NCBI RefSeq assembly: GCF_964213995.1 | Contig: NC_135810.1 | Span: forward strand, 57,908,001 to 57,972,000 | Source: Mustelus asterias | Lineage: Eukaryota | Direction of reading: 5' to 3' | DNA length: 64,000 bases | Shown here: positions 22,410-55,489 of the stretch, in pieces | Numbering within the stretch: position 1 is the first letter of the stretch | How the letters are laid out: each line of letters begins with the position of its first letter | The notes under the pieces: model-generated | Told to the model about the DNA's origin: nothing | Databases searched by the model: none | Seen by the model: only the letters and a program-made list of their open reading frames with translations | Program-made: the position numbers and the translations under genes

Positions 22410-23145
22410 ATTCATTTAAGGGATATGGGTGAGGCAGGCTGGACCAATGTTTATTGCCCATCACTAATTGTCCTTGAACAGAGTTGCTTCCGAGGCCATT
22501 TCAGAGCTCAGTGAATAGGTTATTACTGAGTAAAGTGCCACTTGATAATGCTGTTAAGTAAAGTGCCACTTGATAATGCCCTCTTTCACTTTACTGATGA
22601 TCAGTAGTAAACCGATGGGGCGATAATTGGCTTTTTGTGTACAGGACATACCTGGGCAATTTCCCACATTGTTGGGTAAATGCCAGTGTTGTAACTGTAC
22701 TGGAACAGCTTAGCTAGGGGAGCGGCAAGTTCTGGAGTACAAGTCTTCAGTATTATTGCTGGAATATTGTCACTACCATCGACACCGCAAACTGCTGGTT
22801 CCAAGTGGAGAGGATCTCCAAGAAGATCGCGCATATCGACACATAAACTTGTTGGACTTTAACCTGGTGTTGTTAAAACTCTTACTGTATTATATTGTCA
22901 GGGCCCCAGTATCCCGTGCCTTCAATTATTTCTTGATATCATATGGAGTGAATTGAATTGGCTGAAGACTGCATCTGTGATGCTGGGATCTCCAGAGGAA
23001 GCCGAAATGGATCAGCCATTCAGCACTTCTGGCTGAAGATTGTTGCGAATGCTTCAGCCTTATCTTTTGCACTGATGTGCGGGGCTCCTTCATCATTGAG
23101 GATGGGGATATTTGCGGAGCCTCTTCCAGTGAGTTGTTTAATTGT
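22410..23145 (-). mobile_element. L2/CR1-group LINE fragment containing a PLE insert
   Basis: NIPAIILKTCTPELAAPLAKLFQYSYNTGIYPTMWEIAQVCPVHKK and KAEAFATIFSQKC. Confidence 0.8.
22773..22891 (+). mobile_element. Short Penelope-derived insert
   Basis: 9-bp TSD atattgtca (22764-22772, 22892-22900); contains pLTR segment ataaacttgttggactttaacctggtgttg. Confidence 0.8.
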
Positions 23146-34814: not shown

Positions 34815-37212
34815 ATAAGACCATAAGACATAGGAGCGGAAGTAAGGCCATTCGGCCCATCGAGTCCACTCCACCATTCAATCATGGTTGATTTCAACTC
34901 CATTTACCCGCTCTCTCCCCATAGCCCTTAATTCCTCGAGAAATCAAGAATTTATCAATTTCTGTCTTGAAGACGCTCAACGTCTCGGCCTCCACAGCCC
35001 TCTGTGGCAATGAATTCCACAGACCCACCACTCTCTGGCTGAAGAAATTTCTCCTCATCTCTGTTCTAAAGTGACTCCCTTTTATTCTAAGGCTGTGCCC
35101 CCGCGTCCTAGTCTCCCCTGTTAATGGAAACAACTTCCCTACGTCCATCCTATCTAAGCCGTTCATTATCTTGTAAGTTTCTATCAGATCTCCCCTCAAC
35201 CTCCTAAACTCCAATGAATATAATCCCACGATCCTCAGACGTTCATCGTATGTCAGGCCTACCATTCCTGGGATCATCCGTGTGAATCTCCGCTGGACCC
35301 GCTCCAGTGCCAGTATGTCCTTCCTGAGGTGTGGGGCCCAAAATTGCTCACAGTACTCCAAATGGGGCCTAACCAGTGCTTTATAAAGCCTCAGAAGTAC
35401 ATCCCTGCTTTTGTATTCCAAGCCTCTTGAGATAAATGACAACATTACATTTGCTTTCTTAATTACGGACTCAACCTGCAAGTTTACCTTTAGAGAATCC
35501 TGGACTAGGACTCCCAAGTCCCTTTGCACTTTAGCATTATGAATTTTGTCACCGTTTAGAAAATAGTCCATGCCTCTATTCTTTTTTCCAAAGTGTACGA
35601 CCTCGCACTTGCCCACGTTGAATTTCATCAGCCACTTCTTGGACCACTCTCCTAAACTGTCTAAAACTTTCTGCAGCCTCCCCACCTCCTCAATACTACC
35701 TGCCCCTCCACCTATCTTTGTATCATCGGCAAACTTGGCCAGAATGCTCCCAGTCCCGTCATCTAGATCGTTAATATATAAAGAGAACAGCTGTGGCCCC
35801 AACACTGAACCCTGCGGGACACCACTTGTCACCGGTTGCCATTCTGAGAAAGAACCTTTTATCCCAACTCTCTGCCTTCTGTCTGACAGCCAATCGTCAA
35901 TCCATGTTAGTACCTTGCCTCGAATACCATGGGCCCTTATTTTACTCAGCAGTCTCCCGTGAGGCACCTTGTCAAAGGCCTTTTGGAAGTCAAGATAGAT
36001 AACATCCATTGGCTCTCCTTGGTCTAACCTATTTGTTATCTCTTCAAAGAACTCTAACAGGTTTGTCAGGCACGACCTCCCCTTACTAAATCCATGCTGA
36101 CTTGTCTTAATCCGACCCTGCACTTCCAAGAATTTAGAAATCTCATCCTTAACGATGGATTCTAGAATTTTGCCAACAACTGAGGTTAGGCTAATTGGCC
36201 TATAATTTTCCATCTTTTTTCTTGTTCCCTTCTTGAACAGTGGGGTTACAACAGCGATTTTCCAATCCTCTGGGACTTTCCCTGACTCCAGTGACTTTTG
36301 AAAGATCATAACTAACGCCTCCACTATTTCTTCAGCTATCTCCTTTAGAACTCTAGGATGTAGCCCATCTGGGCCCGGAGATTTATCAATTTTCAGACCT
36401 TTTAGTTTCTCTAGCACTTTCTCCTTTGTGATGGCAACCATATTCAACTCTGCCCCCTGACTTTCCTGAATTGTTGGGATATTACTCATGTCTTCTACTG
36501 TGAAGACTGACGCAAAGTACTTATTAAGTTCCTCAGCTATTTCCTTGTCTCCCATCACTAGATTACCAGCGTCATTTTGGAGCGGCCCAATGTCTACTTT
36601 TGCCTCCCGTTTGTTTTTAATGTATTTAAAGAAACTTTTACTATCATTCCTAATGTTACTGGCTAGCCTACCTTCATATTTGATCCTCTCCTTCCTTATT
36701 TCTCTCTTTGTTATCCTCTGTTTGTTTTTATAGCCTTCCCAATCTTCTGACTTCCCACTACTCTTTGCCACATTATAGGCTCTCTCTTTTGCCTTGATGC
36801 ATTCCCTGACTTCCTTTGTCAGCCATGGCTGCCTAATCCCCCCTCTGATAACCTTTCTTTTGTTTGGGATGAACCTCTGCACTGTGTCCTCAATTACTCC
36901 CAGAAACTCCTGCCATTGCTGTTCTACTGTCTTTCCCATTAGGCTCTGCTTCCAGTCGATTTTTGTCAGTTCCTCCCTCATGCGCCTGTAATTACCTTTA
37001 TTTAACTGTAGAACCTTCACATCTGATTCTGCCTTCCTTCTTTCAAATTGCAGACTGAATTCTACCATATTATGATCACTGCTTCCTAAGTGTTCCCTTA
37101 CTTTAAGATCTTTTATCACGTCTGGCTCATTACATAACACTAAGTCCAGAATAGCCTGTTCCCTCGTGGGCTCCATCACAAGCTGTTCCAAAAAGCCATC
37201 CTGTAAACATTC
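34815..37212 (-). mobile_element. CR1-clade LINE (HER1-like), 5'-truncated, young
   Basis: Contains the open ORF2 part; 3' UTR stem-loop and CTTATG-type tail repeat at ~34815-34830. Confidence 0.95.
34894..37191 (-). CDS. CR1 ORF2 partial (end of APE endonuclease plus complete RT), 765 aa uninterrupted
   Basis: LDLVL..SDHN, NYRPISLTS, DFQKAFD, GVPQGSVLGP and KFADD motifs. Confidence 0.9.
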   Translation of the reverse strand: MEQLVMEPTREQAILDLVLCNEPDVIKDLKVREHLGSSDHNMVEFSLQFERRKAESDVKVLQLNKGNYRRMREELTKIDWKQSLMGKTVEQQWQEFLGVIEDTVQRFIPNKRKVIRGGIRQPWLTKEVRECIKAKERAYNVAKSSGKSEDWEGYKNKQRITKREIRKERIKYEGRLASNIRNDSKSFFKYIKNKREAKVDIGPLQNDAGNLVMGDKEIAEELNKYFASVFTVEDMSNIPTIQESQGAELNMVAITKEKVLEKLKGLKIDKSPGPDGLHPRVLKEIAEEIVEALVMIFQKSLESGKVPEDWKIAVVTPLFKKGTRKKMENYRPISLTSVVGKILESIVKDEISKFLEVQGRIKTSQHGFSKGRSCLTNLLEFFEEITNRLDQGEPMDVIYLDFQKAFDKVPHGRLLSKIRAHGIRGKVLTWIDDWLSDRRQRVGIKGSFSEWQPVTSGVPQGSVLGPQLFSLYINDLDDGTGSILAKFADDTKIGGGAGSIEEVGRLQKVLDSLGEWSKKWLMKFNVGKCEVVHFGKKNRGMDYFLNGDKIHNAKVQRDLGVLVQDSLKVNLQVESVIKKANVMLSFISRGLEYKSRDVLLRLYKALVRPHLEYCEQFWAPHLRKDILALERVQRRFTRMIPGMVGLTYDERLRIVGLYSLEFRRLRGDLIETYKIMNGLDRMDVGKLFPLTGETRTRGHSLRIKGSHFRTEMRRNFFSQRVVGLWNSLPQRAVEAETLSVFKTEIDKFLISRGIKGYGERAGKWS

Positions 37213-37622
37213 ACATTAGGTAATGCACAATTCAGTTGGGTGCCACTTTAATCGGCCCACCAGTGCACCAATTCTCCAAATGGTTCTCAAAGCTCTCACC
37301 AGCTGAACTATTTCACAGGTCAATTTTGTGCTGTGCTTTCGGTTTGCAAGTTGGTGGTTCTACACCTCATTCCCAGGCCAGCTTTGACCCTTCCTTGTGT
37401 GAATGTGGTAGTCCCCGCCATTGTCCTGGCATTATGTTCAAATTTCCATCCCTCCAAGAATTCTCAAGCCCTCCCCTCCAAAGCTTTATGCCATTTTGAT
37501 TGTGGAAGATATCCCTGTGGAACCCCCTGAATGCACTGAGGCAGACACACCTATCTCCTACTGGCAGATTAGTTCACCCCTTCTTGAACTCTATTGCATA
37601 GTGGGCTTTTGAGACCACCTTT

Positions 37623-37718: not shown

Positions 37719-39364
37719 AGGGGGAATCTGCCTACTGAGGTAATATGGGCTGAAGTTAGAAATAGGAAAGGAGCGGTCACGTTGTTAGGAGTTTTCTAGT
37801 AATAGAGATGTGGAGGAAGAAATTGCAAAGCAGATTATGGATAGGTGTGGAGGTCACAGGGTAGTTGTCATGGGTGACTTTAACTTTCCAAATACTGATT
37901 GGAACCTTTATAGGTCGAATAGTTCGGATGGGGCAGTTTTTGTACAGTGTGTGCAAGAATGTTTCCTGACACGATATGTGGATAGGCCGACAAGAGGTGG
38001 GGCCACATTGGACTTGGTATTGGGTAATGAACCGGGCCAAGTGTTAGATTTGTTTGTGGGAGAGCACTTTGGAGATAGTGACCACAATTCGGTGTCTTTC
38101 TTTATTGATAGGGATAGGGCCTTACGACAGGGCAAGGTTTATAATTGGGGGAGGGGTAATTATGACGCGATTAGGCAGGAATTAGGGAGCATAAGATGGG
38201 AACAGAAACTGTCAGGGAAAGGCACAAATGAAAAGTGGAGCTTGTTCAAGGAACAAATACTGAGTGTCCTTGATAGGTATGTCCCTGTCAGGCAGGGAGG
38301 AAATGGCCGAGTGAGGGAACCATGGTTCACAAAAGAGGTTGAATGTCTTGTCAAGAGGAAAAAGGAAGCGTATGTAAGGATGAGAAAACAAGTTGGGTCA
38401 CTTGAGGGGGACAAGGTAGCAAGGAATGAGCTAAAAAAAAAGGCTTAGGAGAGCTAGGAGGGGGCATGAGAAGTCCTTGGTGGGTCGGATCAAGGAAAAC
38501 CCCAAGGCTTTTTATTCTTATGTGAGAAATAAAAGAATGACCAGGGTGAGGTTAGGGTCGGTCAAGGACAGTAGTGGGAACTTGTGCATGGAGTCTGAAG
38601 AGATAGGAGAGGCGATGAATGAATACTTTTCTTCAGTGTTCACCAAGGAGAGGGGCCATGTTTTTGAGGATGAGTGTGAGATACAGGCTGATAGGCTGGA
38701 GGTGGTAGATGTTCTGAGGGAAGATGTATTAGCAATTTTGAAAAACCTGAGGGTCGATAAGTCCCCTGGGCCAGATGGGATATATCCTAGGATTCTTTGG
38801 GAGGCAAGGGATGAGATTGCAGAGCCTTTGGCTTTGATCTTTGGGTCCTTACTGTCCATGGGGATAGTGCCAGAGGACTGGAGAGTGGCGAATGTTGTTC
38901 CTCTGTTCAAGAAAGGAAATAGGAATGACCCTGGCAATTATAGGCCGTTTAGTCTTACTTCGGTGGTCGGTAAGTTAATGGAAAAGGTCCTGAGGGATAG
39001 GATTTATGACCATTTGGAAAGATTCAGCTTAATCCAGGATAGTCAACACAGATTCGTGAAGGGGAAGTCTTGCGTCACAAATTTGATTAGATTCTTTGAG
39101 GAGGTAACTAAGTATGTAGATGAAGGTAGAGCAGTTGATGTCGTATACATGGATTTTAGTAAGGCATTTGATAAGGTTCCCCATGGTCGGCTCATGAAGA
39201 AAGTAAGGAGGTGCGGGATAGAGGGAAATTTGGCCGATTGGATAAGTAACTGGCTATCTCATAGAAGTTATGATGTGGAGATGCCGGCGTTGGACTGGGG
39301 TAAACACAGTAAGAAGTCTCACAACACCAGGTTAAAGTCCAACAGGTTTATTTGGTAGCAAATA

Positions 39365-39402
39365 TCATAAGCTTTCGGAGCACTGCTCCTTCGTCAGATG
39401 GA
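39365..39402 (-). ncRNA. Minimal type-I hammerhead ribozyme motif (PLE pLTR)
   Basis: Reverse complement CAT-CTGACGA-A-GGAGC-AGT-GCTCC-GAAA-GCTT-ATG. Confidence 0.7.
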
Positions 39403-39846
39403 GTGGAAATGTGCTCTCAAACAGTTTCTGCTCAGCGACTCTGCGCTGACGTGTGTCGTGAAGGCCGCCTTGGAGAACGCTTACCTGAAGATCCAAGGCT
39501 GAATGCCCGTGACTGCTGAAGTGCTCCCCCACAGGAAGAGAACAGTCTTGCCTGGTGAGCAGAAACTGATAGCCAAGTTCCGCACACATGAGGACAGCCT
39601 AAACCGGGATGTTGGATTTATGTCACATTATCAGTAACCCCCACAGCTTGCCTCCTGGGCTTGCAGAATCTCACTAGCTGTTCTGTCTGGAGACAATACA
39701 CATCTCTTTAACCTGTGTTGAATGTTCCCTCCACCCACATTGTCTGTACCTTTAAAACCTGGCTGGTTGTAGGGATTCGCATTCTAATCAGTATTCTGCA
39801 ACTTGATTTTGTGTCTGTTTGCACTGTTTGAGAGCACATTTCCACT

Positions 39847-39883
39847 CCATCTGACGAAGGAGCAGTGCTCCGAAAGCTTATGG
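39847..39883 (+). ncRNA. Minimal type-I hammerhead ribozyme motif (PLE pLTR)
   Basis: CCAT-CTGACGA-A-GGAGC-AGT-GCTCC-GAAA-GCTT-ATGG: stem I CCAU/AUGG, stem II 5 bp, palindromic AAGCUU in place of stem III. Confidence 0.75.
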
Positions 39884-40991
39884 TATTAGCTACCAAATAA
39901 ACCTGTTGGACCTTCACCTGGTGTTGTGAGACTTCTTACTGTATCTCATAGAAGACAGAGGGTGGTGGTGGATGGAAAATTTTCAGACTGGAGACCAGTT
40001 ACCAGCGGTGTACCACAGGGATCAGTGCTGGGTCCTCTGCTATTTGCGATTTTTATCAATGACTTGGAGGAGGGGGCTGAAGGGTGGGTCAGTAAATTTG
40101 CTGATGACACCAAGATTGGTGGAGTAGTGGATGAGGTGGAGGGCTGTTGTAGGCTGCAAAGAGACATTGATAGGATGCAGAGCTGGGCCGAAAAATGGCA
40201 GATGGAGTTTAACCCAGATAAGTGCGAGGTGATTCATTTTGGGAGGACAAATTTAAATGCGGATTACAGGGTCAACAGCAGGGTTCTGAGGAATGTGAAG
40301 GAACAGAGAGATCTTGGGGTTCATATCCACAGATCTCTGAAGGTTGCCGCTCAAGTGGATAGAGTCATGAAGAAAACCTATAGTGTGTTAGCGCTTATTA
40401 ACAGGGGGTTTGAGTTTAAGAGCTGTGGGGTTATGCTGCAACTGTACAGGACCTTGGTGAGACCACATTTGGAATATTGCGTGCAGTTCTGGTCACCTCA
40501 CTATAAGAAGGATGTGGAAGCACTGGAAAGAGTGCAAAGGAGATTTACCAGGATGCTGCCTGGTTTGGAGGGTAGGTCTTATGAGGAAAGGTTGAGGGAG
40601 CTAGGGCTTTTCTCTTTAGAGCAGAGGAGGAAGAGAGGCGACTTAATAGAGGTTTATAAGATGATGAGGGGGATAGATAGAGTGGATGTTCAGAGACTAT
40701 TTCCTCGGGTGGATGTAGCTGTTACTAGGGGGCATAACTATAAGGTTCATGGTGGGAGGTATAGGAGGGATGTCCGAGGTAGGTTCTTTACTCAGAGAGT
40801 GGTTGGGGTGTGGAATGGACTGCCTGGTGTGATAGTGGAGTCGGACACTTTAGGAACTTTCAAGCAGTTATTGGATAGGCACATGGAGCACACCAGAGTG
40901 ATAGGGAGTGGGATAGCTTGATCTTGGTTTCAGACAAAGCTTGGCACAACATCGAGGGCCGAAGGGCCTGTACTGTTCTATGTTCTATATG

Positions 40992-41215
40992 AGTTTGCAA
41001 GTACTCCCCGTATCTGCATGGGTTTCCTCCAGGTACTCCAGTTTCATCCCACACTCCAAAGATGTGCGGGTTAGGTTGATTGGCCATGTTAAATTGCCGC
41101 TAGTGTCAGGGGGACTAGCAGGATAAATACATGGGGTTACGGGGAAAGGGCCGGGGTGGGATTGTTGTTGGTGCAGGCTCGATGGGCTGAATGGCCTCCT
41201 TCTGCACTGTAAGGA
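40992..41215 (+). mobile_element. V-SINE 3' half
   Basis: Continues 37623-37718 exactly after the TSD. Confidence 0.85.
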
Positions 41216-42060
41216 TTTACAGTATGTGTTGCCTGCATGCTAGCAATACATCTTCTATTTTTTTTGCTAACTAAGCTGGTGTCCGTAGCAAAGTGGCAAA
41301 TTAAATAGAGCATAAACATCTGTATCAATCTATTAATCTTTCCATAGCTTTGTATAAATTACCAATCTTATAATGAGGAAGGCAGTGTTCATTAATCAGG
41401 GACCTTTACGCGCTAAGCCATTTTAACAGTTCGTTTAGGCAAATGAACACATTCATAATATATGCAGAAGTAAATTAGCTGAATTCAAAATAAGTTGTAA
41501 GCACCGATTAAGTGTGTATTGTTTTGGTTCTGAAGTTGCTGATCAACATCCTGCAATTTCTCTATATTGTTACTGGTGGAGAACAAACGATGCTAAGTAT
41601 TTTACAAAACAAAAGAACATTTTACATTTATTTGCAAGTAAAAGGAATATATCGGAATTTGTTGTAACCGAGCGGAAGCCATGAGGCAACAATTTTACAC
41701 AGGCATCATGGGAAAACAAAGTAGAGAGATATATTTAGGTCGAGGATTCACATCTATAAAAATGAAATAGACCAAACACAGTCCAACAATCGACAGTTAC
41801 TTCAATACATTGTGGGGTGTTACCTAGTTATGGTACAAGGTTACCATCCCAAAATTGCAGGAATGATCCTGATGATTAGTCCAGCAATTTCAGACTTAGT
41901 AATCAGTTACAAGCAAAGCAAAAATAGACGAGAAGGTTAAGTATAAACTGAGGGATGAAGTGGTTATAGGGAAAACCCACTAAACTGATGGAAACTGTAG
42001 CTAAACAATTCACAAAAAGTAAAGGGGGCGATTCTCCCATCCTGCTGTGCTGCTTTTGTA

Positions 42061-42147
42061 GCACCTGATGAAGGAGCAGAGCTCTGAAAGCTTGTGATTC
42101 CGAATAAACCTGTTAGGCTTTAACTTGGTGTTGTGAGACTTCTTACT
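42061..42147 (+). mobile_element. Solo PLE pLTR fragment with hammerhead motif
   Basis: CAC-CTGATGA-A-GGAGC-AGA-GCTCT-GAAA-GCTT-GTG followed by aataaacctgttagg..gacttcttact. Confidence 0.8.
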
Positions 42148-42229
42148 AATCTTAATCATGCTCAATTGCAACAGTTTTACAACCCCATGAATAAATAATA
42201 TCCATCTCTTCTCCATTTGGTATGCCATG

Positions 42230-44300
42230 TGGAAGAGTTAGCTGGGGCTTCACCTGGTGACCCGCAATTCATAAGCATGAACAGAGAGTGGCGGTATTGT
42301 GGAGAGTTCACATGGGAGGGCGCAGCCTTTTCCAAGCTCTGCTCAGCTGGACACACAGCCTGAAACCTGAGAGAGCAATGAAAAGAAGAGTCAGCAGCAA
42401 ATGCGCAAGGTATGGGGCAGTCCTGCCACCCTCACAGGGCAGAAAATAGAGGAGAGACATTGCATGTCTTCCACGGATAGAATGACCTCCAGCATGGAAC
42501 TTGATTCATGGCTATCTTAAAAGCTCCTGCAGATCCTCACTGGCTCCAACACCCAGAGTGCATTGGCTGTGAGCATCTCAGCAATTGGGATCTAAGCAGC
42601 CTGCTTCTACCTCTGGCTCGGCAAAAGGAGAGAAAAGTATTTTAGCTCAACAAGCTCAACACAAGGGTTTTTGTGGAAATTCATATTAATGACATTCATT
42701 TACTTATTCACACTTAATTTGTAAAGTCCCCACTTTGCTGTATTCTCCATCCCTGTTTGCTAAGTGACAACTCGAATTTTCAGTTACTATGTGATGAATG
42801 TGGATGTCCCTCACCCGACTACCAGAAACCTGCATCAACTGCAACTTCTATCTCACTGACACACGCTTAACACAATGGGAAGTCACACACATGTCAGAGC
42901 TTGCACGTGCTGCCAGCCATTCAAACATGCCAGGTACATAACCCAAACTCATTGACAAATTTCTCACTCTCTTGTAGGGCAAGGCGGCTGATGTAACTAA
43001 CTGTTCGGAGGGAGCCAGACATCGCAGCATGTATTGGACCTCCATGGAGTAGATGTTGCTGGAGGTGATGGGTGCTGCGTCACTGAGGTCATGTCCAGTG
43101 TCATTGTTAAAACCATCCAGGATGATGGAGTGGTCTGCCCAAATACACCTTCTCACATCTCTATTATCTCAACTTGCCAAGAATGTAACCTTGAACCTTT
43201 TGCATTCCCCGCCTCTCTCACCCTAACCCTCTCCTTGTGTCTTCTCCTCATTAACACTCAAGAACTGCTGCCTTGCCAGCCAAAGGAACAAGAGATTGAG
43301 GAGAAAGAGGCACTGTCACTCAGTTGGACGCACACATCCACCAGCTTAGATATTAGCACTGCATGGGCATCAGAGCTGAGATCTGTCTGTGGTGAGTAAG
43401 TGAGCACAAATGACCTGCGGCCAATCCAGAGGGAAAGGGCTGAGGGGATGGGTGCTGGCTCTCCAGAGGGTGAAGTCATGCACAGGCCCTGCTGCAGATG
43501 ACTCAGATGAGGACTTCATTCAGGCTGCATACAGAGAAAGACCGATGTGTATGCACATTGAAATATTCGGTGCATAGGCATGCCTATCACAAAGCCTGCA
43601 ACCAGTGTCAAGGGACATGGAGAAGTCTGCTTCAACTTGAGACAGAGCTTTATCAGGGTGGAAGTGATGGCCACTTCCACAGGAACACTTGCGAATCCAC
43701 CAGCATGTTTGATGGCCAATGCTGTATCTTCCATTGCACCACAAGTAGAAACCCACCCAAGGTCTGAGCGCACAGTACGAGCTCAGACTGAGGCCTCAGA
43801 CTCAGGCCTCAGACTCAGACTAATCCCTGCTTGTTGCCTTGCAAGTCCAGCTTGGTGTGAAGCAAGCTCAGATTGCTGTCATCATGGCTGCAGATATAGG
43901 CATGCCGGTTCTCATTGTAGTCCAGGAATCACTATCCAACGGGTTATTGAGAAAGCTACAGTTTCATCCCAGGAGAGTACCAGCAGTGTCACACAGCACC
44001 AAGCTGCTGTTCTCCCTCATGATGACGGCATTCATGTTCCAACCATTGCCACTCAATCTGTCCTTCCACTGTGCCTGTCAGCCAGCCAGCCCAGACTGCT
44101 GCCACCCATGGCGATGTGCTGTAGTCCAAAGCAGGGCCTCTAGGTGCAGAACTGGTTGAGTTCAGCCTGCGAGACTCTCTGCAGTCTCCCCAACTGCAAG
44201 TCAGCAATCTTTCACCAACCGTGCTGCAACTACAGGAGTAGCATTGTGTAGGAGCACTAAGCCAGGCAAAGAAACAAAGAGAATGCACAAGGGTGATGAG
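42230..44300 (+). pseudogene. Harbinger Myb/SANT-like accessory gene remnant (multi-exon)
   Basis: Acceptor ctcttgtag at ~42978 then GKAA...TSME*MLLEVMG, paralogous to the 50415-50551 exon. Confidence 0.55.
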
Positions 44301-44539
44301 TTGAGTATTGTGAGGGGTATTGAATGTTTTGCTGGATTAAGGTGGTAAGGCAAGTGCTTTATGATGGTTATTATTTCAGCATTGTGGCTAAGAGAACACT
44401 CTGATGACAGGGGGATAGTTTAGTGACCTCAGGATGTCCCAATGTGTTTCAACACTAGTTACCGTTGTAATGTCAATAATGTATCAGCCAATTTGTGCAT
44501 CACAATGCAATAATGACCAGATACTGTGCTTTTTCTTAT

Positions 44540-44910
44540 TCATTTGGGAGTCGCTGGCTGGCCAGCATTTATTGCCCATCCCTAGTTGCCCTTGAGAAGA
44601 TGGTGGTGAGCTGCCCTCTTGAAATACTGCAGTCCACGTGCTACGGGTTGATACAACTGAGTGGTTTATTGGACCATTTCAGAGGGCAGTCGAGAGTCAA
44701 CCACATTGCTGTGGCTCTGGAGTCACATGTAGGCCAGACCAGGTAAGGACAGCAGATTTCCTTCCCTAAAGGACATTAGTGAACTAGATGGGTTTTTCCG
44801 ACAATTGACAATGGTTTCATGGTCATCAGTAGATTTTTAATTCCAGATTTTTTTTATTGAATTCAAATTCCACCATCTGTCCTGGCAGGATTCGAACCCA
44901 GGTCCCCTTA
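44540..44910 (-). mobile_element. tRNA-headed SINE / L2-tail repeat
   Basis: B-box ggattcgaaccc at ~44890; related copies at 32260-32500, 54340-54690 and 60050-60195. Confidence 0.65.
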
Positions 44911-44981
44911 AGCTGTTATCAGTTCAGGGATAAATATCAGTCAAGGCACCAGAGAGAAATCCTCTGTGATTCTCCTAAAAA

Positions 44982-45150
44982 TTGATTAAGTTGATCTTTC
45001 TCTACACCCTAGCTATGACTGTAACACTACATTCTGCACTCTCTTGTTTCCTTCTCTATGAACGGTATGCTTTGTCTGTATAGCGCGCAAGAAACAATAC
45101 TTTTCACTGTATGTTAATACATGTGACAATAAATCAAATCAAAATCAAAC
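44982..45150 (+). mobile_element. Rex1/Babar 3' tail
   Basis: Near-identical to 25815-25985; lies within DeuSINE fragments. Confidence 0.88.
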
Positions 45151-45738
45151 CAAAAAATTCAAATTAAATAGTGCCATAAAATTCTTTCCATTCAGCCGAG
45201 AAGCCTCGATTTGCTGCCAAATCTGAAAGATGGATGCCTTTGCACCCGAGCCAACTTTTATTCCTCAACCAATATCATTAAAACTGATAATTAAACCATT
45301 TTTCACAGTGCTGTGGGACAAATTGGTGCTCACATGTGTCGACATTACAATAGTGGTTACAATTTAAAATGTCTTTCCTGAGATGAAGGGCCTGTGGTAC
45401 ATCCGGAGCTCAGAAAAGGTGCCATTTCTTCTTCAACAGGAGGTGGGCAATTGCATTGGCAGTTATGATTTCTAATATTGTAAAAAATGATATAATTTCA
45501 CATAACTAAATATAATTTAGGCTTTTGGATCGAAACCTTGATGTTTAACCATCTGGACCATTTCAATATTTGAATGGTTGGAATTAATCATTCCTCTAAT
45601 GTCACTGAGGTTGATTCTCCTCTGCAGAGTGACTATACAAACTGAGAAAATGTGGTGATGTTGAGTGTAGAAAGCATTCGAGACAAAACCTTTCATGGAG
45701 AAAAACTTCCCAGGACATTTCACAAAAAAGGAGAGTTA

Positions 45739-46057
45739 TAGAATCATCATAGAATCCCTACAGTGCAAAAGGAGACCCATTCAACCCATCGAGTTTGCAC
45801 TGACTCTTACCCAGACCTTATCATAGTAATCCCAAGTATTTACGCCGCTAATCCCCTAACCTGTATATCTTGGGACATAAGGGGCAATTTAACATGAGCA
45901 ATCCACCTAACCTGGGAGGAAACTGGAGCACTAGAAGGAAACCCAGGCAGACACAGAGAGAATGCGCAAACTCCACACAGACAGTGACCCAAGGCCGGAA
46001 TTGAACGCGGGTCCCTGGCGCTGTGAGGCAGCAGTGCTAACTACTGTGCCACCGTGC
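45739..46057 (-). mobile_element. HE1-like V-SINE
   Basis: Family match. Confidence 0.88.
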
Positions 46058-47245
46058 ATACCAAAAACCAATCAGGGGAAGAGTTAAGACAGATAACTAA
46101 AGTTTTCTTCAGAACCTTGGAAGGCCAGGTGAAAACTTATCAAGTTGGGAAGAGGTATAGTAAACTGATAGGATGGGGATGCGTGTGTGCTGTTTTCAGA
46201 GTGCTAGATATCAGCAGCAGGGTCATCAGTCATCAACCGAGGAACTGCCAGTAATGATACTGGAGAGCTGAGTTCAAAAGAAAAGAAACTACAAACTAGA
46301 ATGGAGGGCTGAAGGAGGTTCCAAAGGTTGGGCACAATAAGGCCATGGAGAGTTTTGAAAAGGAAGATAAAGATTTGAATATCAATGCTCCATCGTCCCA
46401 GCATGAGCAGTGACTGCCTTGCTTGGCTGGCTGTCAGATAACAGCAAGGATAATGATGAGGTGGCAAGAGTGAGAGGAAGACTGCATTCTTCCTCATAGA
46501 GGACATCAGGTTTATGGCCCATGAAGTCAATGCAAATCACCTAGTGGAGCACCTCAGCAATCCTTGTCATTTTTGGACAAACTGATCGCCGGACTGCTGT
46601 GTCACCGTGGAAGCCCCTTTGAACACCGTAACCTATAATAATGGTGGCAGCAGTCTGAGCTTGTACAACAGCAGCCTAACTCTCCAGATATTAGGTGGCT
46701 GCTGCATGTGTTATAGTGAAAGCTACAACAAAGCCATCAGATGCTGCATCATGGTCGAGTCCACAATCGTGCAAACAGTCACCACTTTACACTGGGAAAG
46801 ATGGGTTCAAGGTTCTTCACAAAACTCTATACGAAGTTGGTGCTGAACTTTTCAATGCTCTTTGACATTGACAACTGATTTTTGAGCAACATTATCCATG
46901 CACCAAGCATTTTGTTCTGCATATCCATCAGCATCCTTTTGTATGTTGTTCCCGTCAATGTTTTTATCTGAGTCCTCTGCTGTGGAGCTGGCATTGGTAC
47001 TAATTTTTCCGCTCACCATTGTGCACCTATGCATTTCCAACCTCTAATCTAACTTCTAATATATGTGCAGTGACAATGCTGTCACTTAATTTGCAAAATT
47101 AAGTGACAACATTGAATCTTCACCACCTCTATCTTCTTTGTGTCCCTCTACTGCCCGGTCAGGTTGCAACTCTTATATATCTGAAAAGAGTAAGAAGTCT
47201 CACAATACCAGGTTAAAGTCCAACAGGTTTATTTGGTAGCAAAAA

Positions 47246-47282
47246 CAACTAGCTTTCGGAGTGCTGCTCCTTCGTCAGGTAA
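47246..47282 (-). ncRNA. Hammerhead motif in the left pLTR
   Basis: Reverse complement AC-CTGACGA-A-GGAGCAGCACTCC-GAAA-GCTA-GT; one stem II mismatch. Confidence 0.6.
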
Positions 47283-50125
47283 GTGGGAGTTCTGTTCACA
47301 AACAGGGCATATAAAGACACAAACTCAATTTACAAAATAGTGGTTGGAATGCGAATCTTTACAGGAAATCAAGTCTTAAAGGTACTGACACGGTGAGTGG
47401 AGAGAGGGTTAAGCACAGGTTAAACAGATGTGTATTGTCTCCAGCCAGGACAGTTAGTGAGATTCTGCAAGCCCAGGCAAGTCATGGGGGTTACAGATAG
47501 TGTGACATGAACCCAAGATCCCGGTTGAGGTCGTCCTCATGTGTGCGGAACTTGGCTATCAGTCTCTACTCAGCGGCTCTGCGTTGTCGTGTGTCGTGAA
47601 GGCTGCCTTGGAGAACGCTTACCCGAAGATCAGAGGCCGAATGCCCGTGACCGCTGAAGTGTTCCCCAACAGGAAGAGAACACTCTTGCCTGGTGATTGT
47701 CGAGCGGTGTTCATTCATCCATTGTCGTAGTGTCTCCCCAATATACCATGCCTCGGGACATCCTTTCCTGCAGCATATCAGGTAGACAACGTTGGCCGAG
47801 TTGCAAGAGTATGTACCGTGTACCTGGTGGATGGTGTTCTCACGTGAGATGATGGTATCCATGTCGATGATCCGGCATGTCTTGCAGAGGTTGCTGTGGC
47901 AGGGTTGTGTGGTGTCGTGGTCACTGTTCTCCTGAAGGCTGGGTAGTTTGCTGCAGACAATGGTCTGTTTGAGGTTGTCGAGCGCCATATTCTGTTCTTA
48001 TGAGGGCATCTTTCAGCGTCTGGAGGTGTCTGTTGCGATCCTCCTCAACTAAGCAGATCCTGTGTATACGGAAGGCTTGTCCGTAGGGGATGACTTCTTT
48101 AACATGTTTAGGGTGGAAGCTGGAGAAGTGGAGCATCGTGAGGTTATCTGTGGGCTTGTGGTACAGTGGAGTGCTGAAGTGACCGTCCTTAATGGAGATG
48201 CGTGTGTCCAAGAACGCAACCGATTCCGGAGAGTAGTCCATGGTGAGTCTGATGGTGGGATGGAACTTGTTGATGTCATCATATAGTTGTTTCAGTGATT
48301 GTTCGCCATGAGTCCAAAGGAAGAAAATGTCATCGATGTATCTAGTGTACAGCATCGGTTGAAGGTCCTGTGCGGTGAAGAAGTCTTGTTCAAACCTGTG
48401 CATGAAGATGTTGGCATATTGAGGTGTGAATTTGGTCCCCATGGCTGTTCCGTGTGTCTGGATGAAGAACTGGTTGTTGAAGGTTGTTGATTTTGTCGCG
48501 ACACTACGGACTTCCTACAGAAACTCAGCACACATGGAGCAGTTGAACCAGGAGCACTCCTCGTCACAATGGATGTCTACACTAGCATCCCCCATGACGA
48601 TGGCATTGCTGCAACGGCCTCAGTACTCAGTGCCGACAACTGCCAGTTTCCAGATGCAATTTTACAACTCATCCGCTTCATCCTGGACCACAATGTCTTC
48701 ACCTTCAACAACCAGTTCTTCATCCAGACACACAGAACAGTCATGGAGACTACATTTGCACCTCAATATGCCAACATCTTCATGCACAGGTTCGAACCAA
48801 GACCTCTTCACCGCACAGGACCTTCAACCGATGCTGTACACTAGATACATCGATGACATTTTCTTCCTTTGGAGTCATGGTGAACAATCACTGAAACAAT
48901 TATATGATGACATCAACAAGTTCCATCCCACCATCAGACTCACCATGGACTACTCTCCGGAATCGATTGCATTCTTGGACACACGCATCTCCATTAAGGA
49001 CGGTCACCTCAGCACCTCACTGTATCGCAAGCCCACGGATAACCTCACGATGCTCCACTTCTCCAGTTTCCACCCTAAACACGTTAAAGAAGCCATCCCC
49101 TATGGACAAGCCCTCCGTATACACAGGATCTGCTCGGATGAGGAGGATCGCAACAGACACCTCCAGACGCTGAAAGATGCCCTCATAAGAACAGAATATG
49201 GTGCTTGACTCATCGATCGACAGTTCCGACGCGCCACAGCGAAAAACTGCACTGACCTCCTCAGAAGACAAACACGGGACACAGTGGACAGAGTACCCTT
49301 CGTCGTCCAGTACTTCCCCGGAGCGGAGAAGCTACAACATCTTCTCCGGAACCTTCAACATGTCTTTGATGAAGATGAACATCTCGCCAAGGCCATCCCC
49401 ACACCCCCACTTCTTGCCTTCAAACAACCGCACAACCTCAAACAGACCATTGTCCGCAGCAAACTACCCAGCCTTCAGGTGAACAGAGGCCACGACACCA
49501 CACAACCCTGCCACAGCAACCTCTGCAAGACGTGCTGGATCATCAACACGAATGCCATCATCTCACGTGAGAACACCATCCACCAGGTACACGGCACATA
49601 CTCTTACAACTTGGCCAATGTTGTCTACCTGATATGCTGCAGGAAAGGATGTCCCGAGGCATGGTACATTGGGGAGACCATGCAAGCGCTACAATAATGG
49701 ATGAATGAACACCGCTCGACAATCACCAGGCAAGAGTGTTCTCTTCCTGTTGGGGAACACTTCAGCGGTCACGGGCATTCAGCCTCTGATCTTCGGGTAA
49801 GCATTCTCCAAGGCGGCCTTCACGACTCACGACAACGCAGAGTCACTGAGCAGAGACTGATAGCCAAGTTCCGCACACATGAGGATGGCCTCAACCGGGA
49901 TCTTGGGTTCATGTCACACTATCTGTAACCCCCATGACTTGCCTGGGCTTGCAGAATCTCACTAACTGTCCTGGCTGGAGACAATACACATCTGTTTAAC
50001 CTGTGCTTAACCCTCTCTCCACTCACCGTGTCAGTACCTTGAAGACTTGATTACCTGTAAAGACTCGCATTCCAACCATTATTTTGTAAATTGAGTTTGT
50101 GTCTTTATATGAACAGAACTCCCAC

Positions 50126-50162
50126 TTACCTGACGAAGGAGCAGCGCTCCGAAAGCTAGTGG
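50126..50162 (+). ncRNA. Hammerhead motif in the right pLTR
   Basis: TTAC-CTGACGA-A-GGAGC-AGC-GCTCC-GAAA-GCTA-GTGG; predicted cleavage after 50158. Confidence 0.72.
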
Positions 50163-50394
50163 CTTTTGCTACCAAATAAACCTGTTGGACTTTAACCTGG
50201 TGTTGTGAGACTTCTTACTGTGTTTACCCCAGTCCAACGCCGGCATCTCCACATCATATCTGAAAAGAAACAGACACAAGGCTAAGTTTATGCTGCAGGA
50301 AGGGAGTAAACGCTTAAAGCATTCACAGCTTGTAAATCAGAAAGACCAAGTGAGATGAAGGTGAAGTGGGATCCGAGAAGTAGGATTAGGTATG

Positions 50395-50990
50395 GGAATA
50401 CCATCATCTTCAATAGTTTCAGCCCCATTGCTAGCCACATTTAGCATTTCAATAATGGCCAACAACACCTTCTCCATGAGGGTTAGGACATTCAGGCATG
50501 CCTATCTCCTCTTGTTAGCTACTGATGCCTCCAGTTGTGCACCACCTTGTCCTGTAAGAGAGGTGTGTGTGAGTGAGTGTGTGACAATCTGTGCATGTGA
50601 TGTGGCACTGTTGAGTAACTAACAATGTATGCAATTGTGCAATGTGGGTGTGAGGCTTGCAGCTAAATGTATGACGGTCAGGTATGAGACGTGATTGATA
50701 GTAATTGTTGGTAGGTGAGTAATTGGGATGAATTCAGTGTTGTCTGTGGATACAGGTGCGGCTGGTCGAATAATGCATTTGAAGTTACATTCACTGACCT
50801 TGACCACTTACATGAGGTCTTTGAACTTCTTGCAGCATTCCATACAGGAGCTTGATTCCTGATATCAACTTGCATGACCATTTGCCCTCACTGACTTTTG
50901 AGCATTTTTCTAGGTGCCCTCCTGGCTCCCTCGAGATACAAAACATCTCTTCTATTTTGGAGCCCACACTCTTCCATGTAGTGCGGCATG
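50395..50990 (-). pseudogene. Harbinger Myb/SANT-like gene remnant (two exons)
   Basis: ECCKKFKDLM*VVK|gtcagt donor near 50795; acceptor cttacag at 50552, then DKVVHNWRHQ*LT..VLTLMEKVLLAII. Confidence 0.7.
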
Positions 50991-50991
50991 T

Positions 50992-51290
50992 GGGGTGGTG
51001 ACACAGTGGCACAGTGTTAGCACTGCTGCCTCACAGCACTACGGACCCGGGTTCAATTCCCAGGCTTGGGTCACTGTTTGCATGTTCTCCTTGTGTCTGT
51101 GTGGGTTTCCTCTGGGTGCTCCGGTTTCCTCCCACAGTCCGAAAGACGTGCTTGGTTAGGTGCATGAGCCATGCTAAATTCTCCCTCAGTGTACCGGAAC
51201 AGGCATCGGAGTGTGGTGACTAGGGGGTTTGCACATTAACTTCATTGCAGTGTTAATGTAAGCCTACTTGTGACTAATAAATAAATAAAC
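50992..51290 (+). mobile_element. V-SINE, alternative tail type
   Basis: Tail aacttcattgcagtgttaatgtaagcctacttgtgactaataaa. Confidence 0.88.
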
Positions 51291-52588: not shown

Positions 52589-52809
52589 AGGCCAGGGTGT
52601 TAACTCGGGCATTGTGAGAGGGTGCAGAGCATGTAAATAATGACATTAGTCAGTGTGCAATACTAGTTTGATGCCAGCACTGCCATTTTCAACCTGTTCC
52701 AGCTGACATTCACCCATAACCAAGTTTGCCGTTCACTGCTGTATCAAGGATGCTGCTGATGCGTTCCATGTCAGGAGACAAGTATATTTTCTACTCCTAG
52801 TCCACAGAG

Positions 52810-52895
52810 AAGCACCACAACACCAGGTTAAAGTCCAATAGGTTTATTTGATAACACAAGCTTTCGGAGCGCTTCTCCTTCAACAGGAAGTCCCA
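52810..52895 (-). mobile_element. Solo PLE pLTR fragment, hammerhead core mutated (CTGTTGA)
   Basis: acaacaccaggttaaagtccaataggtttatt..aagctttcggagcgcttctccttcaacagg. Confidence 0.8.
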
Positions 52896-55056: not shown

Positions 55057-55489
55057 GCACGGTGGCACAGTGTTAGCACAGCTGCCTCACAGCACCAGGG
55101 ACCCAGGTTCAATTCCGGCCTTGGGTCACTGTCTGTGTGGAGTTTGCACGTTCTCCCCGTGTCTGCGTGGGTTTCCTCCAGGTGCTCCGGTTTCCTTCCA
55201 CAGTCCAAAGATGTGCAGATTAGGTGGATTGGCTATGCTAAATTGCCCCTTAGTGTCCCAAGATTATAGGTTAGATGAATTAGCCATGGTAAATGCATGG
55301 GGCTTTTGCTACCAAATAAACCTATTGGACTTTAACCTGGTGTTGTTAAACTTCTTACTGTGTTTACCCCAGTCCAACGCCAGCATCTCCACAAATGCAT
55401 GGGAGTACAGGGATAGGGTGGGATGCTCTTCCAGAGAGTCAGTGCAGGCACAGTGGGCAGAATGGCCTCCTTCTACACTGTAAGGATTC
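55057..55489 (+). mobile_element. HE1-like V-SINE with a 91-bp PLE insert
   Basis: Family match; insert at 55302-55392. Confidence 0.88.
55302..55392 (+). mobile_element. 91-bp Penelope pLTR 3' fragment
   Basis: 11-bp TSD aaatgcatggg (55291-55301, 55393-55403); matches 50162-50253. Confidence 0.88.

What the first reader, a model, noticed from the sequence alone, without database searches (positions are those of the whole stretch)
47177..50268. 3.07-kb Penelope fold-back: ~1.3-kb inverted arms, two pLTRs, one TSD
Seen: the minus arm 47190-48484 mirrors 48701-50220 at high identity (with one ~230-bp deletion at ~47978). Only ~220 bp of spacer separates the arms, and the whole is bounded by a single 13-bp TSD. 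Both arms include the same 3' end, unlike L1 twin priming, where arms do not overlap. Inference: two cDNAs primed from opposite target strands and joined at their 5' ends. A transcript would form long dsRNA (endo-siRNA or ADAR substrate) trimmed by a hammerhead. The same architecture recurs at 39268-39941.
Basis: partly seen in the sequence, partly recalled or inferred. Interest (0 to 1): 0.7.

Follow-up and report, generated by a model that had tools for sequence, protein, structure and literature searches.

The report
Double-primed Penelope fold-back insertion, shark
This 3-kb mirror-image insertion is one real, dead copy of a Penelope-like jumping gene in the head-to-head form that about two thirds of its sampled sister copies share and that is already described; the family's strict one-tail rule and symmetric landing site show it was likely written by two separate copying starts, one from each cut DNA strand.

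Summary
Real and ordinary in kind. One Neptune-type Penelope-like insertion (47190-50255) lies between a 13-bp TSD; a related organism's contig shows the empty site. The arms are 5'-truncated copies joined head to head, about 95% alike; the 'spacer' is just the longer arm's RT sequence plus a 6-nt insert; only one arm has the 37-nt tail. This layout is published (PMC8557442, PMC3846280) and is the family's default: 68 of 100 sampled copies. This one is merely the longest (69 others compared). Family data support two priming events: 16 of 16 unselected fold-backs carry exactly one tail, the tail-less arm is the longer in 21 of 66 (snap-back cannot do that), and targets are a spaced palindrome, [AC]TG-N16-CA[GT], in 28 of 59 (0.4 expected). 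Arms come from the same source lineage, not from distinct sources; one RNA, sister RNAs and gene conversion are not separated. Hammerhead trimming is not supported: the motif is buried in the duplex. The scan noted the same pattern before (98 findings, at least 20 genomes).

The parts
47177..47189 (+). Left copy of the 13-bp target-site duplication
   Evidence: empty site in related organism
47190..48484 (-). Tail-less inverted arm: 5'-truncated copy (RT C-terminal part, GIY-YIG EN, 3' pLTR), ending 38 nt before the tail end; 222-bp internal deletion at 47977/47978
47240..47288 (-). Minimal hammerhead motif in the tail-less arm (approximate bounds)
48485..48490 (.). 6-nt insert at the head-to-head junction; repeats bases next to the minus-arm end, likely locally templated
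48491..50255 (+). Tail-bearing arm: 5'-truncated, broken ORF (RT, CX4CxxC linker, GIY-YIG EN with CCHH; ORF stop 49926-49928), 3' pLTR and tail. 48491-48700 is the part without a mirror copy
50126..50162 (+). Minimal type I hammerhead motif (C3 at 50130, H17 at 50158)
   Evidence: features as in PMC4209133
50219..50255 (+). 37-nt tail, present on this arm only; in tandem units it runs up to the ORF start codon
50256..50268 (+). Right copy of the TSD, followed by CAG at 50271-50273 (one half of the family's target motif)
39255..39954 (-). Second fold-back of another subfamily, 13-bp TSD, tail on the left arm, inside a LINE RT reading frame, at an exact CTG-N16-CAG site

Best explanation
This is a single, dead insertion of a Neptune-type Penelope-like retrotransposon made of two 5'-truncated copies joined head to head inside one 13-bp target duplication, likely built by two reverse-transcription starts, one from each nicked target strand. 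Shown: structure, empty site, one-tail rule, target motif, same source lineage of both arms. Inferred mechanism: a dimeric RT-endonuclease recognises a spaced palindrome (CTG-N16/17-CAG) and nicks both strands about 13 nt apart; one 3' end primes at the tail end of the RNA, the other about 37 nt upstream; both cDNAs stop early at independent points (here 219 nt apart) and host end-joining fuses them, leaving short microhomology or, as here, a small templated insert. Later point mutations and deletions degraded each arm about equally. It has no demonstrated function.
For: Empty site with one target copy. 68 of 100 tail-anchored copies have an adjacent tail-less inverted arm, 62 of these 68 with a spanning TSD of 10 bp or more, median 13. 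Inverted-arm ends cluster at -34 to -41 from the tail end in 54 of 64. 16 of 16 bystander fold-backs, not selected for a tail, carry exactly one tail. The tail-less arm reaches at least 30 nt further 5' in 21 of 66, the tailed arm in 14: each arm can hold sequence the other lacks, so both were copied from RNA. CA[GT] just outside the TSD on both sides: 51 of 55 and 41 of 55, control 10 of 55 each; [AC]TG-N16-CA[GT] in 28 of 59 against 0.4 expected. Junctions show 0-9 nt overlap or short inserts. The anole PLE protein cleaves and extends both strands, has two RT start sites bounding the tail and is predicted to be a dimer (PMC11167929, main text read). Arms of this copy carry 21 and 21 private non-CpG changes: same age.
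Against: The in-vitro data are for a Poseidon-clade element and found no difference in start site between strands, and an ATT preference, not this motif (PMC11167929). For this copy alone snap-back is not excluded, because the tailed arm contains all of the tail-less arm. Its own target has only the CAG half (TTA, or TTG in one contig, at the other). The motif was read off the same sites it was scored on (5 of 7 direct copies with a TSD also fit, by eye). One locus (L045) has two tailed arms, without a TSD. The census is the first 100 of 2822 exact tail matches, all on one contig and biased to intact tails.
Confidence: 0.75

Rival explanations
1. Snap-back or self-priming: one cDNA folds on itself at a palindrome and copies itself back (a self-priming model was proposed in PMC3846280).
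For: Geometry of this copy allows it. 26 of 68 fold-backs have arms truncated within 10 nt of each other (permutation mean 5.0). Arms share locus-unique variants (23 against 0.5-0.9 expected).
Against: In 21 of 66 the tail-less arm is longer at 5' while the other arm holds the tail. Only 1 of 28 long fold-backs is symmetric. The junction here has an insert, and tail-less single copies with their own TSD exist (L038, L072).
Confidence: 0.1
2. Two independent insertions into the same or adjacent sites, or later rearrangement of a tandem copy.
For: The family is very abundant (2822 exact 50-mer matches) and has a target preference.
Against: One TSD, none per arm; clean empty site; arms of the same subfamily in 30 of 30 callable pairs; partner arm ranks at 0.098 on average among comparators; equal private divergence.
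Confidence: 0.04
3. L1-style twin priming on a tandem transcript: the second primer starts at the upstream unit's pLTR, so the arms overlap only in consensus coordinates.
For: Tails often run on into the next unit's ORF start, so templates are tandem RNAs; it would give same-source arms.
Against: Needs loss of most of a 3-kb unit between the arms in nearly every case, and does not explain why the upstream start always lacks the tail or why short arms end at the same base.
Confidence: 0.09
4. Assembly artefact (false inverted duplication).
For: No spanning read seen; no listed contig bridges the inner junction (1549 pieces not shown).
Against: Arms differ at 5% of sites with separate indels; exact TSD; empty site in a relative; same layout in 68 of 100 sister loci.
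Confidence: 0.02

Closest known systems
Complex insertions of endonuclease-bearing Penelope-like elements: inverted 5'-truncated copy, one-sided 30-40 bp tail, one TSD (PMC8557442 passages and Fig. 2 legend; Adineta Pen2a/Pen2, PMC3846280 passages)
   Same: Head-to-head arms, tail at one end only, single TSD, frequent 5' truncation, minimal hammerhead in the pLTR.
   Different: Both arms are long ORF-containing truncations rather than a short inverted pLTR; the papers describe the one-sided tail as optional or frequent, here it is near-obligate; no spaced-palindrome target was seen in the passages read.
Neptune (or Nematis) clade of EN+ PLEs (PMC8557442 passages)
   Same: C-terminal GIY-YIG EN with CCHH and an upstream CX2-5CxxC linker (here CX4CxxC).
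   Different: No (TA)n microsatellite targeting; target is CTG-N16/17-CAG. Neptune versus Nematis not resolved by a tree.
Poseidon from Anolis carolinensis, in vitro (PMC11167929, main text read)
   Same: Two RT start sites bounding the tail; both strands cut and extended.
   Different: Other clade (no linker finger); ATT preference; no strand difference in start site reported.
L1 twin priming and 'dual priming' (PMC2837659 passages; PMC9148063 passage)
   Same: Both target strands prime cDNA; inverted pieces inside one TSD; end-joining at the inner junction.
   Different: L1 twin priming starts the second cDNA internally, so pieces do not overlap and it is a minority event; dual priming was a hypothesis for L1. 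Here both arms start at the 3' end and it is the majority outcome.

Membership tests
EN+ Penelope-like elements | Single ORF with RT followed by C-terminal GIY-YIG endonuclease with CCHH | tested here: met
   RVT_1 hit (sister copy E 1e-8, minus arm E 9e-6, below cut-off); VVY..C..C..YIG and two downstream H by alignment. Pfam gave no GIY-YIG hit on the broken pieces.
EN+ Penelope-like elements | pLTR from partial tandem, ORF starting at the pLTR/tail boundary | tested here: met
   Sister copy L052 has pLTR-tail-ATG-ORF-pLTR with period about 2990; the window copy is truncated and lacks it.
EN+ Penelope-like elements | 30-40 bp tail at one end; TSD | tested here: met
   37-nt tail on one arm, 13-bp TSD.
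EN+ Penelope-like elements | Minimal hammerhead in the pLTR | tested here: met
   Core, extra base before helix II, palindromic AGCT, helix I first pair C-G in 73 and T-A in 29 of 112 arms. Rfam gave no match.
Penelope/Poseidon clade | No CX2-5CxxC linker finger | tested here: not met
   CX4CxxC is present and conserved (definition).
Neptune clade | CX2-5CxxC linker finger between RT and EN | tested here: met
   (shared with Nematis).
Neptune clade | RT phylogeny with reference PLEs | not tested
   No reference set was at hand.
L1 twin-primed inversion | Non-overlapping inverted pieces, poly(A) tail | tested here: not met
   Arms overlap over 1.3 kb; no poly(A).
Hairpin-RNA (endo-siRNA / ADAR) locus | Read-through transcript, phased small RNAs or A-to-I edits | not testable with these tools
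   No RNA data could be laid on the locus.

The most novel reading that the evidence does not exclude
Penelope-like elements of this family insert by default through a symmetric, dimer-driven double priming on one RNA molecule: a spaced palindrome CTG-N16-CAG is cut on both strands and the two subunits start at two fixed sites 37 nt apart. That would explain the tail, the inverted pLTR and the one-tail rule at once, and make PLEs the first retrotransposons whose normal cycle copies the RNA twice and relies on end-joining of two cDNAs.
Probability: 0.4. Interest if true: 0.65.

Novelty: new member of a known kind. Interest (0 to 1): 0.36.

Why it matters
The locus itself is a dead copy with a published layout. 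Its value is as a record of mechanism: how PLEs make inverted ends and tails is called undefined in PMC8557442, and the later steps unvalidated in PMC11167929. The one-tail rule, the arm-length pattern and the symmetric target give sharp predictions for the existing in-vitro system, and a defined two-strand target would bear on using PLE proteins for insertion. Tens of thousands of such inverted repeats could also be a source of dsRNA in sharks, but that is untested.

Tried and rejected
DNA search of the own genome with the pLTR returned nothing because common words are skipped; an exact pattern was used instead. Rfam: no match at E 1 in 38500-51000. Pfam on four window pieces: no relevant family. 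PDB sequence search: 0 hits. No RNA holder listed, so expression was not tested. Inner junction in contigs: no bridging piece listed, inconclusive; outer junctions in organism A contigs reach only 24 and 19 letters into the element, under the 31-letter rule, and may be the source sample. ADAR trace: shared locus-unique variants were A>G in 2 of 23, private 19 of 173; this copy's arms show A>G 6 of 483 and 3 of 357 against T>C 1 of 379 and 4 of 290: no signature. Gene conversion as the source of shared variants: mean run percentile 0.59, n = 17, p = 0.087, control 0.44: inconclusive. Hammerhead cut as a 5' end hot spot: 3 of 174 ends at -98; the larger pile is at -125 to -141, at the 5' side of the motif. 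My first label 'Poseidon' (note) was dropped. A shark/Penelope paper search gave nothing relevant.

Full report
Observation. The structure is there. A 13-bp duplication sits at 47177-47189 and 50256-50268. The minus arm 47190-48484 mirrors 48701-50218, with 67 differences in 1277 columns and a 222-bp deletion at 47977/47978. The region between the mirrored parts is not foreign: 48491-48700 is RT-coding sequence that continues the plus arm, as eight sister copies show, and 48485-48490 is a 6-nt insert that repeats bases next to the minus-arm end. The plus arm ends in a 37-nt tail that the minus arm lacks. A 1958-base contig of a related organism runs from the left flank to 47176 and continues at 50256 without a gap, which is the empty site with one copy of the target (X4 record 25). 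No spanning read was available, and no listed contig bridged the inner junction.

Identity. The arms encode a broken RT followed by a GIY-YIG endonuclease with the CCHH motif. The closest proteins are from sharks by their source names. A CX4CxxC finger in the linker places it with Neptune/Nematis and not Penelope/Poseidon, by the definition in PMC8557442 (passages). A near full-length sister copy has pLTR, tail, start codon, ORF and pLTR with a period of about 2990 bases. The second copy, 39255-39954, has the same layout with the tail on its left arm, an internal deletion, and about 81% identity to this one in the 3' region.

How common. An exact 50-base pLTR-tail pattern matches 2822 times in the genome. 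I fetched the first 100 listed, all on contig C1, with 7 kb upstream. By script, 68 of 100 have an adjacent tail-less inverted arm (62 of them with a spanning TSD of at least 10 bp, median 13), 25 are direct, 5 have an inverted arm that lacks the 3' end, 2 have two tails. On inspection five of the 'direct' or 'internal' ones are fold-backs interrupted by later insertions, one 'two-tail' case is a one-tail fold-back anchored at an upstream pLTR, and one (L045) has two tails and no TSD. The window copy has the longest mirrored stretch of the 70 fold-backs compared (1565 against 1006 for the next); that, not its kind, is what made it stand out.

Mechanism: two priming events. (a) Tail-less arms end at -34 to -41 from the tail end in 54 of 64 cases with a TSD (62 loci plus the two window copies). 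(b) 16 of 16 bystander fold-backs found in the flanks, not selected for a tail, carry exactly one tail; independent choice between two equally used starts would give this with probability about 1.5e-5 (my arithmetic). (c) Leaving out two complex loci (L036, L052), the tail-less arm reaches at least 30 nt further 5' in 21 of 66 and the tailed arm in 14. Where one arm has the tail and the other has more 5' sequence, neither can be a copy of the other, so snap-back fails as the general route. (d) The target is symmetric: CA[GT] lies just outside the TSD on the tail side in 51 of 55 and on the tail-less side in 41 of 55, against 10 of 55 in control windows; [AC]TG-N16-CA[GT] occurs in 28 of 59 rebuilt sites against 0.4 expected. 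The motif was chosen from these data; 5 of 7 direct copies with a TSD also fit at N16-17, by eye. I looked for it after the lead in e1-8040706. The window's second copy fits exactly; the main copy has only the CAG half. (e) Inner junctions look like end-joining, with short overlaps or small inserts. These fit the anole PLE data: both strands cut and extended, two start sites bounding the tail, predicted dimer (PMC11167929, main text and part of methods). That protein is from another clade and showed no strand difference in start site, so the asymmetry is my inference from genomic ends.

One source or two. In 30 fold-backs with at least 120 comparable non-CpG columns the partner arm ranks at 0.098 on average among other arms (0.5 expected; age also contributes). 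Both arms belong to the same subfamily in 30 of 30 callable pairs (40 of 70 pairs not callable). 23 variants are shared by both arms and by no other sampled locus, against 0.5-0.9 by chance. In the window copy five are shared; a 20-mer carrying a cluster of shared variants occurs exactly twice in the genome, once in each arm. So arm differences do not assort with distinct sources. But that cluster lies in a 152-bp run of identity (P = 0.017), so gene conversion between arms may explain it; the family-wide test was inconclusive. Short fold-backs often truncate at the same point on both arms (26 of 68 within 10 nt, permutation mean 5.0; 14 of 52 outside the hot spot, mean 2.4), long ones do not (1 of 28). 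This favours one RNA for short copies but does not prove it. I did not reproduce an A>G excess among shared variants (2 of 23).

Hammerhead and dsRNA. Each arm has a minimal type I hammerhead with helix I covariation across 112 arms. Such motifs are described for PLEs, including opposite-strand pairs 100-700 bp apart, need a dimer and showed no cleavage as monomers (PMC4209133, first two of four parts). In a read-through transcript of either strand there is one sense motif, and co-folding of the arm ends pairs it almost completely with the other arm. Trimming by the ribozyme is therefore unlikely. A 1.3-kb duplex would form if the locus were transcribed through, but nothing here shows that it is.

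What is known. [quoted passage not shown] Twin and dual priming are L1 models (PMC2837659; PMC9148063; passages). In searches I saw no paper that applies double priming to PLE fold-backs or reports this target motif; the library lacks most subscription papers, including the 2005 and 2006 reviews, and I read no supplements. The scan itself has noted the same pattern in 98 findings in at least 20 genomes and the same target motif in this genome; these are unchecked notes, not support.

Verdict. Real, a new member of a known kind, with no shown function. The interest lies in the family-level rules, which make the open question of PLE inverted ends testable. Interest 0.36.

Noticed in passing
window 55293-55404: Short direct (not inverted) 3' fragment of the same family with an 11-bp TSD, inserted in a SINE-like repeat.
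   Followed up: partly
window 42058-42147, 52803-52891, 22840-22891: Older, more diverged pLTR fragments of related families; the one at 42058 keeps a hammerhead motif with a different helix I.
   Followed up: partly
window 49880-50040 and 47379-47531: 152-bp stretch with no difference between the arms that carries genome-unique shared variants; candidate gene-conversion tract.
   Followed up: partly
window 47065-47123: Imperfect 28-bp inverted repeat in the left flank, 54 bases from the insertion.
   Followed up: no
L001-L100, about 125-141 bases from the tail end: 5' truncation points pile up at the 5' side of the hammerhead motif rather than at its cut site.
   Followed up: partly
L022, L056, L076 right ends: Tails that run 14 or more bases into the next unit's ORF start, showing tandem RNA templates and loose start-site choice.
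   Followed up: partly
window 34894-37215 (-): 773-codon open LINE RT frame; the window is otherwise dense in LINE and SINE-like repeats, with no host gene evident among ORFs of 150 aa or more.
   Followed up: no
P0009, P0024, P0031, P0036: Annotated shark host-gene isoforms that include pieces of this element's ORF; exonisation or annotation error.
   Followed up: no
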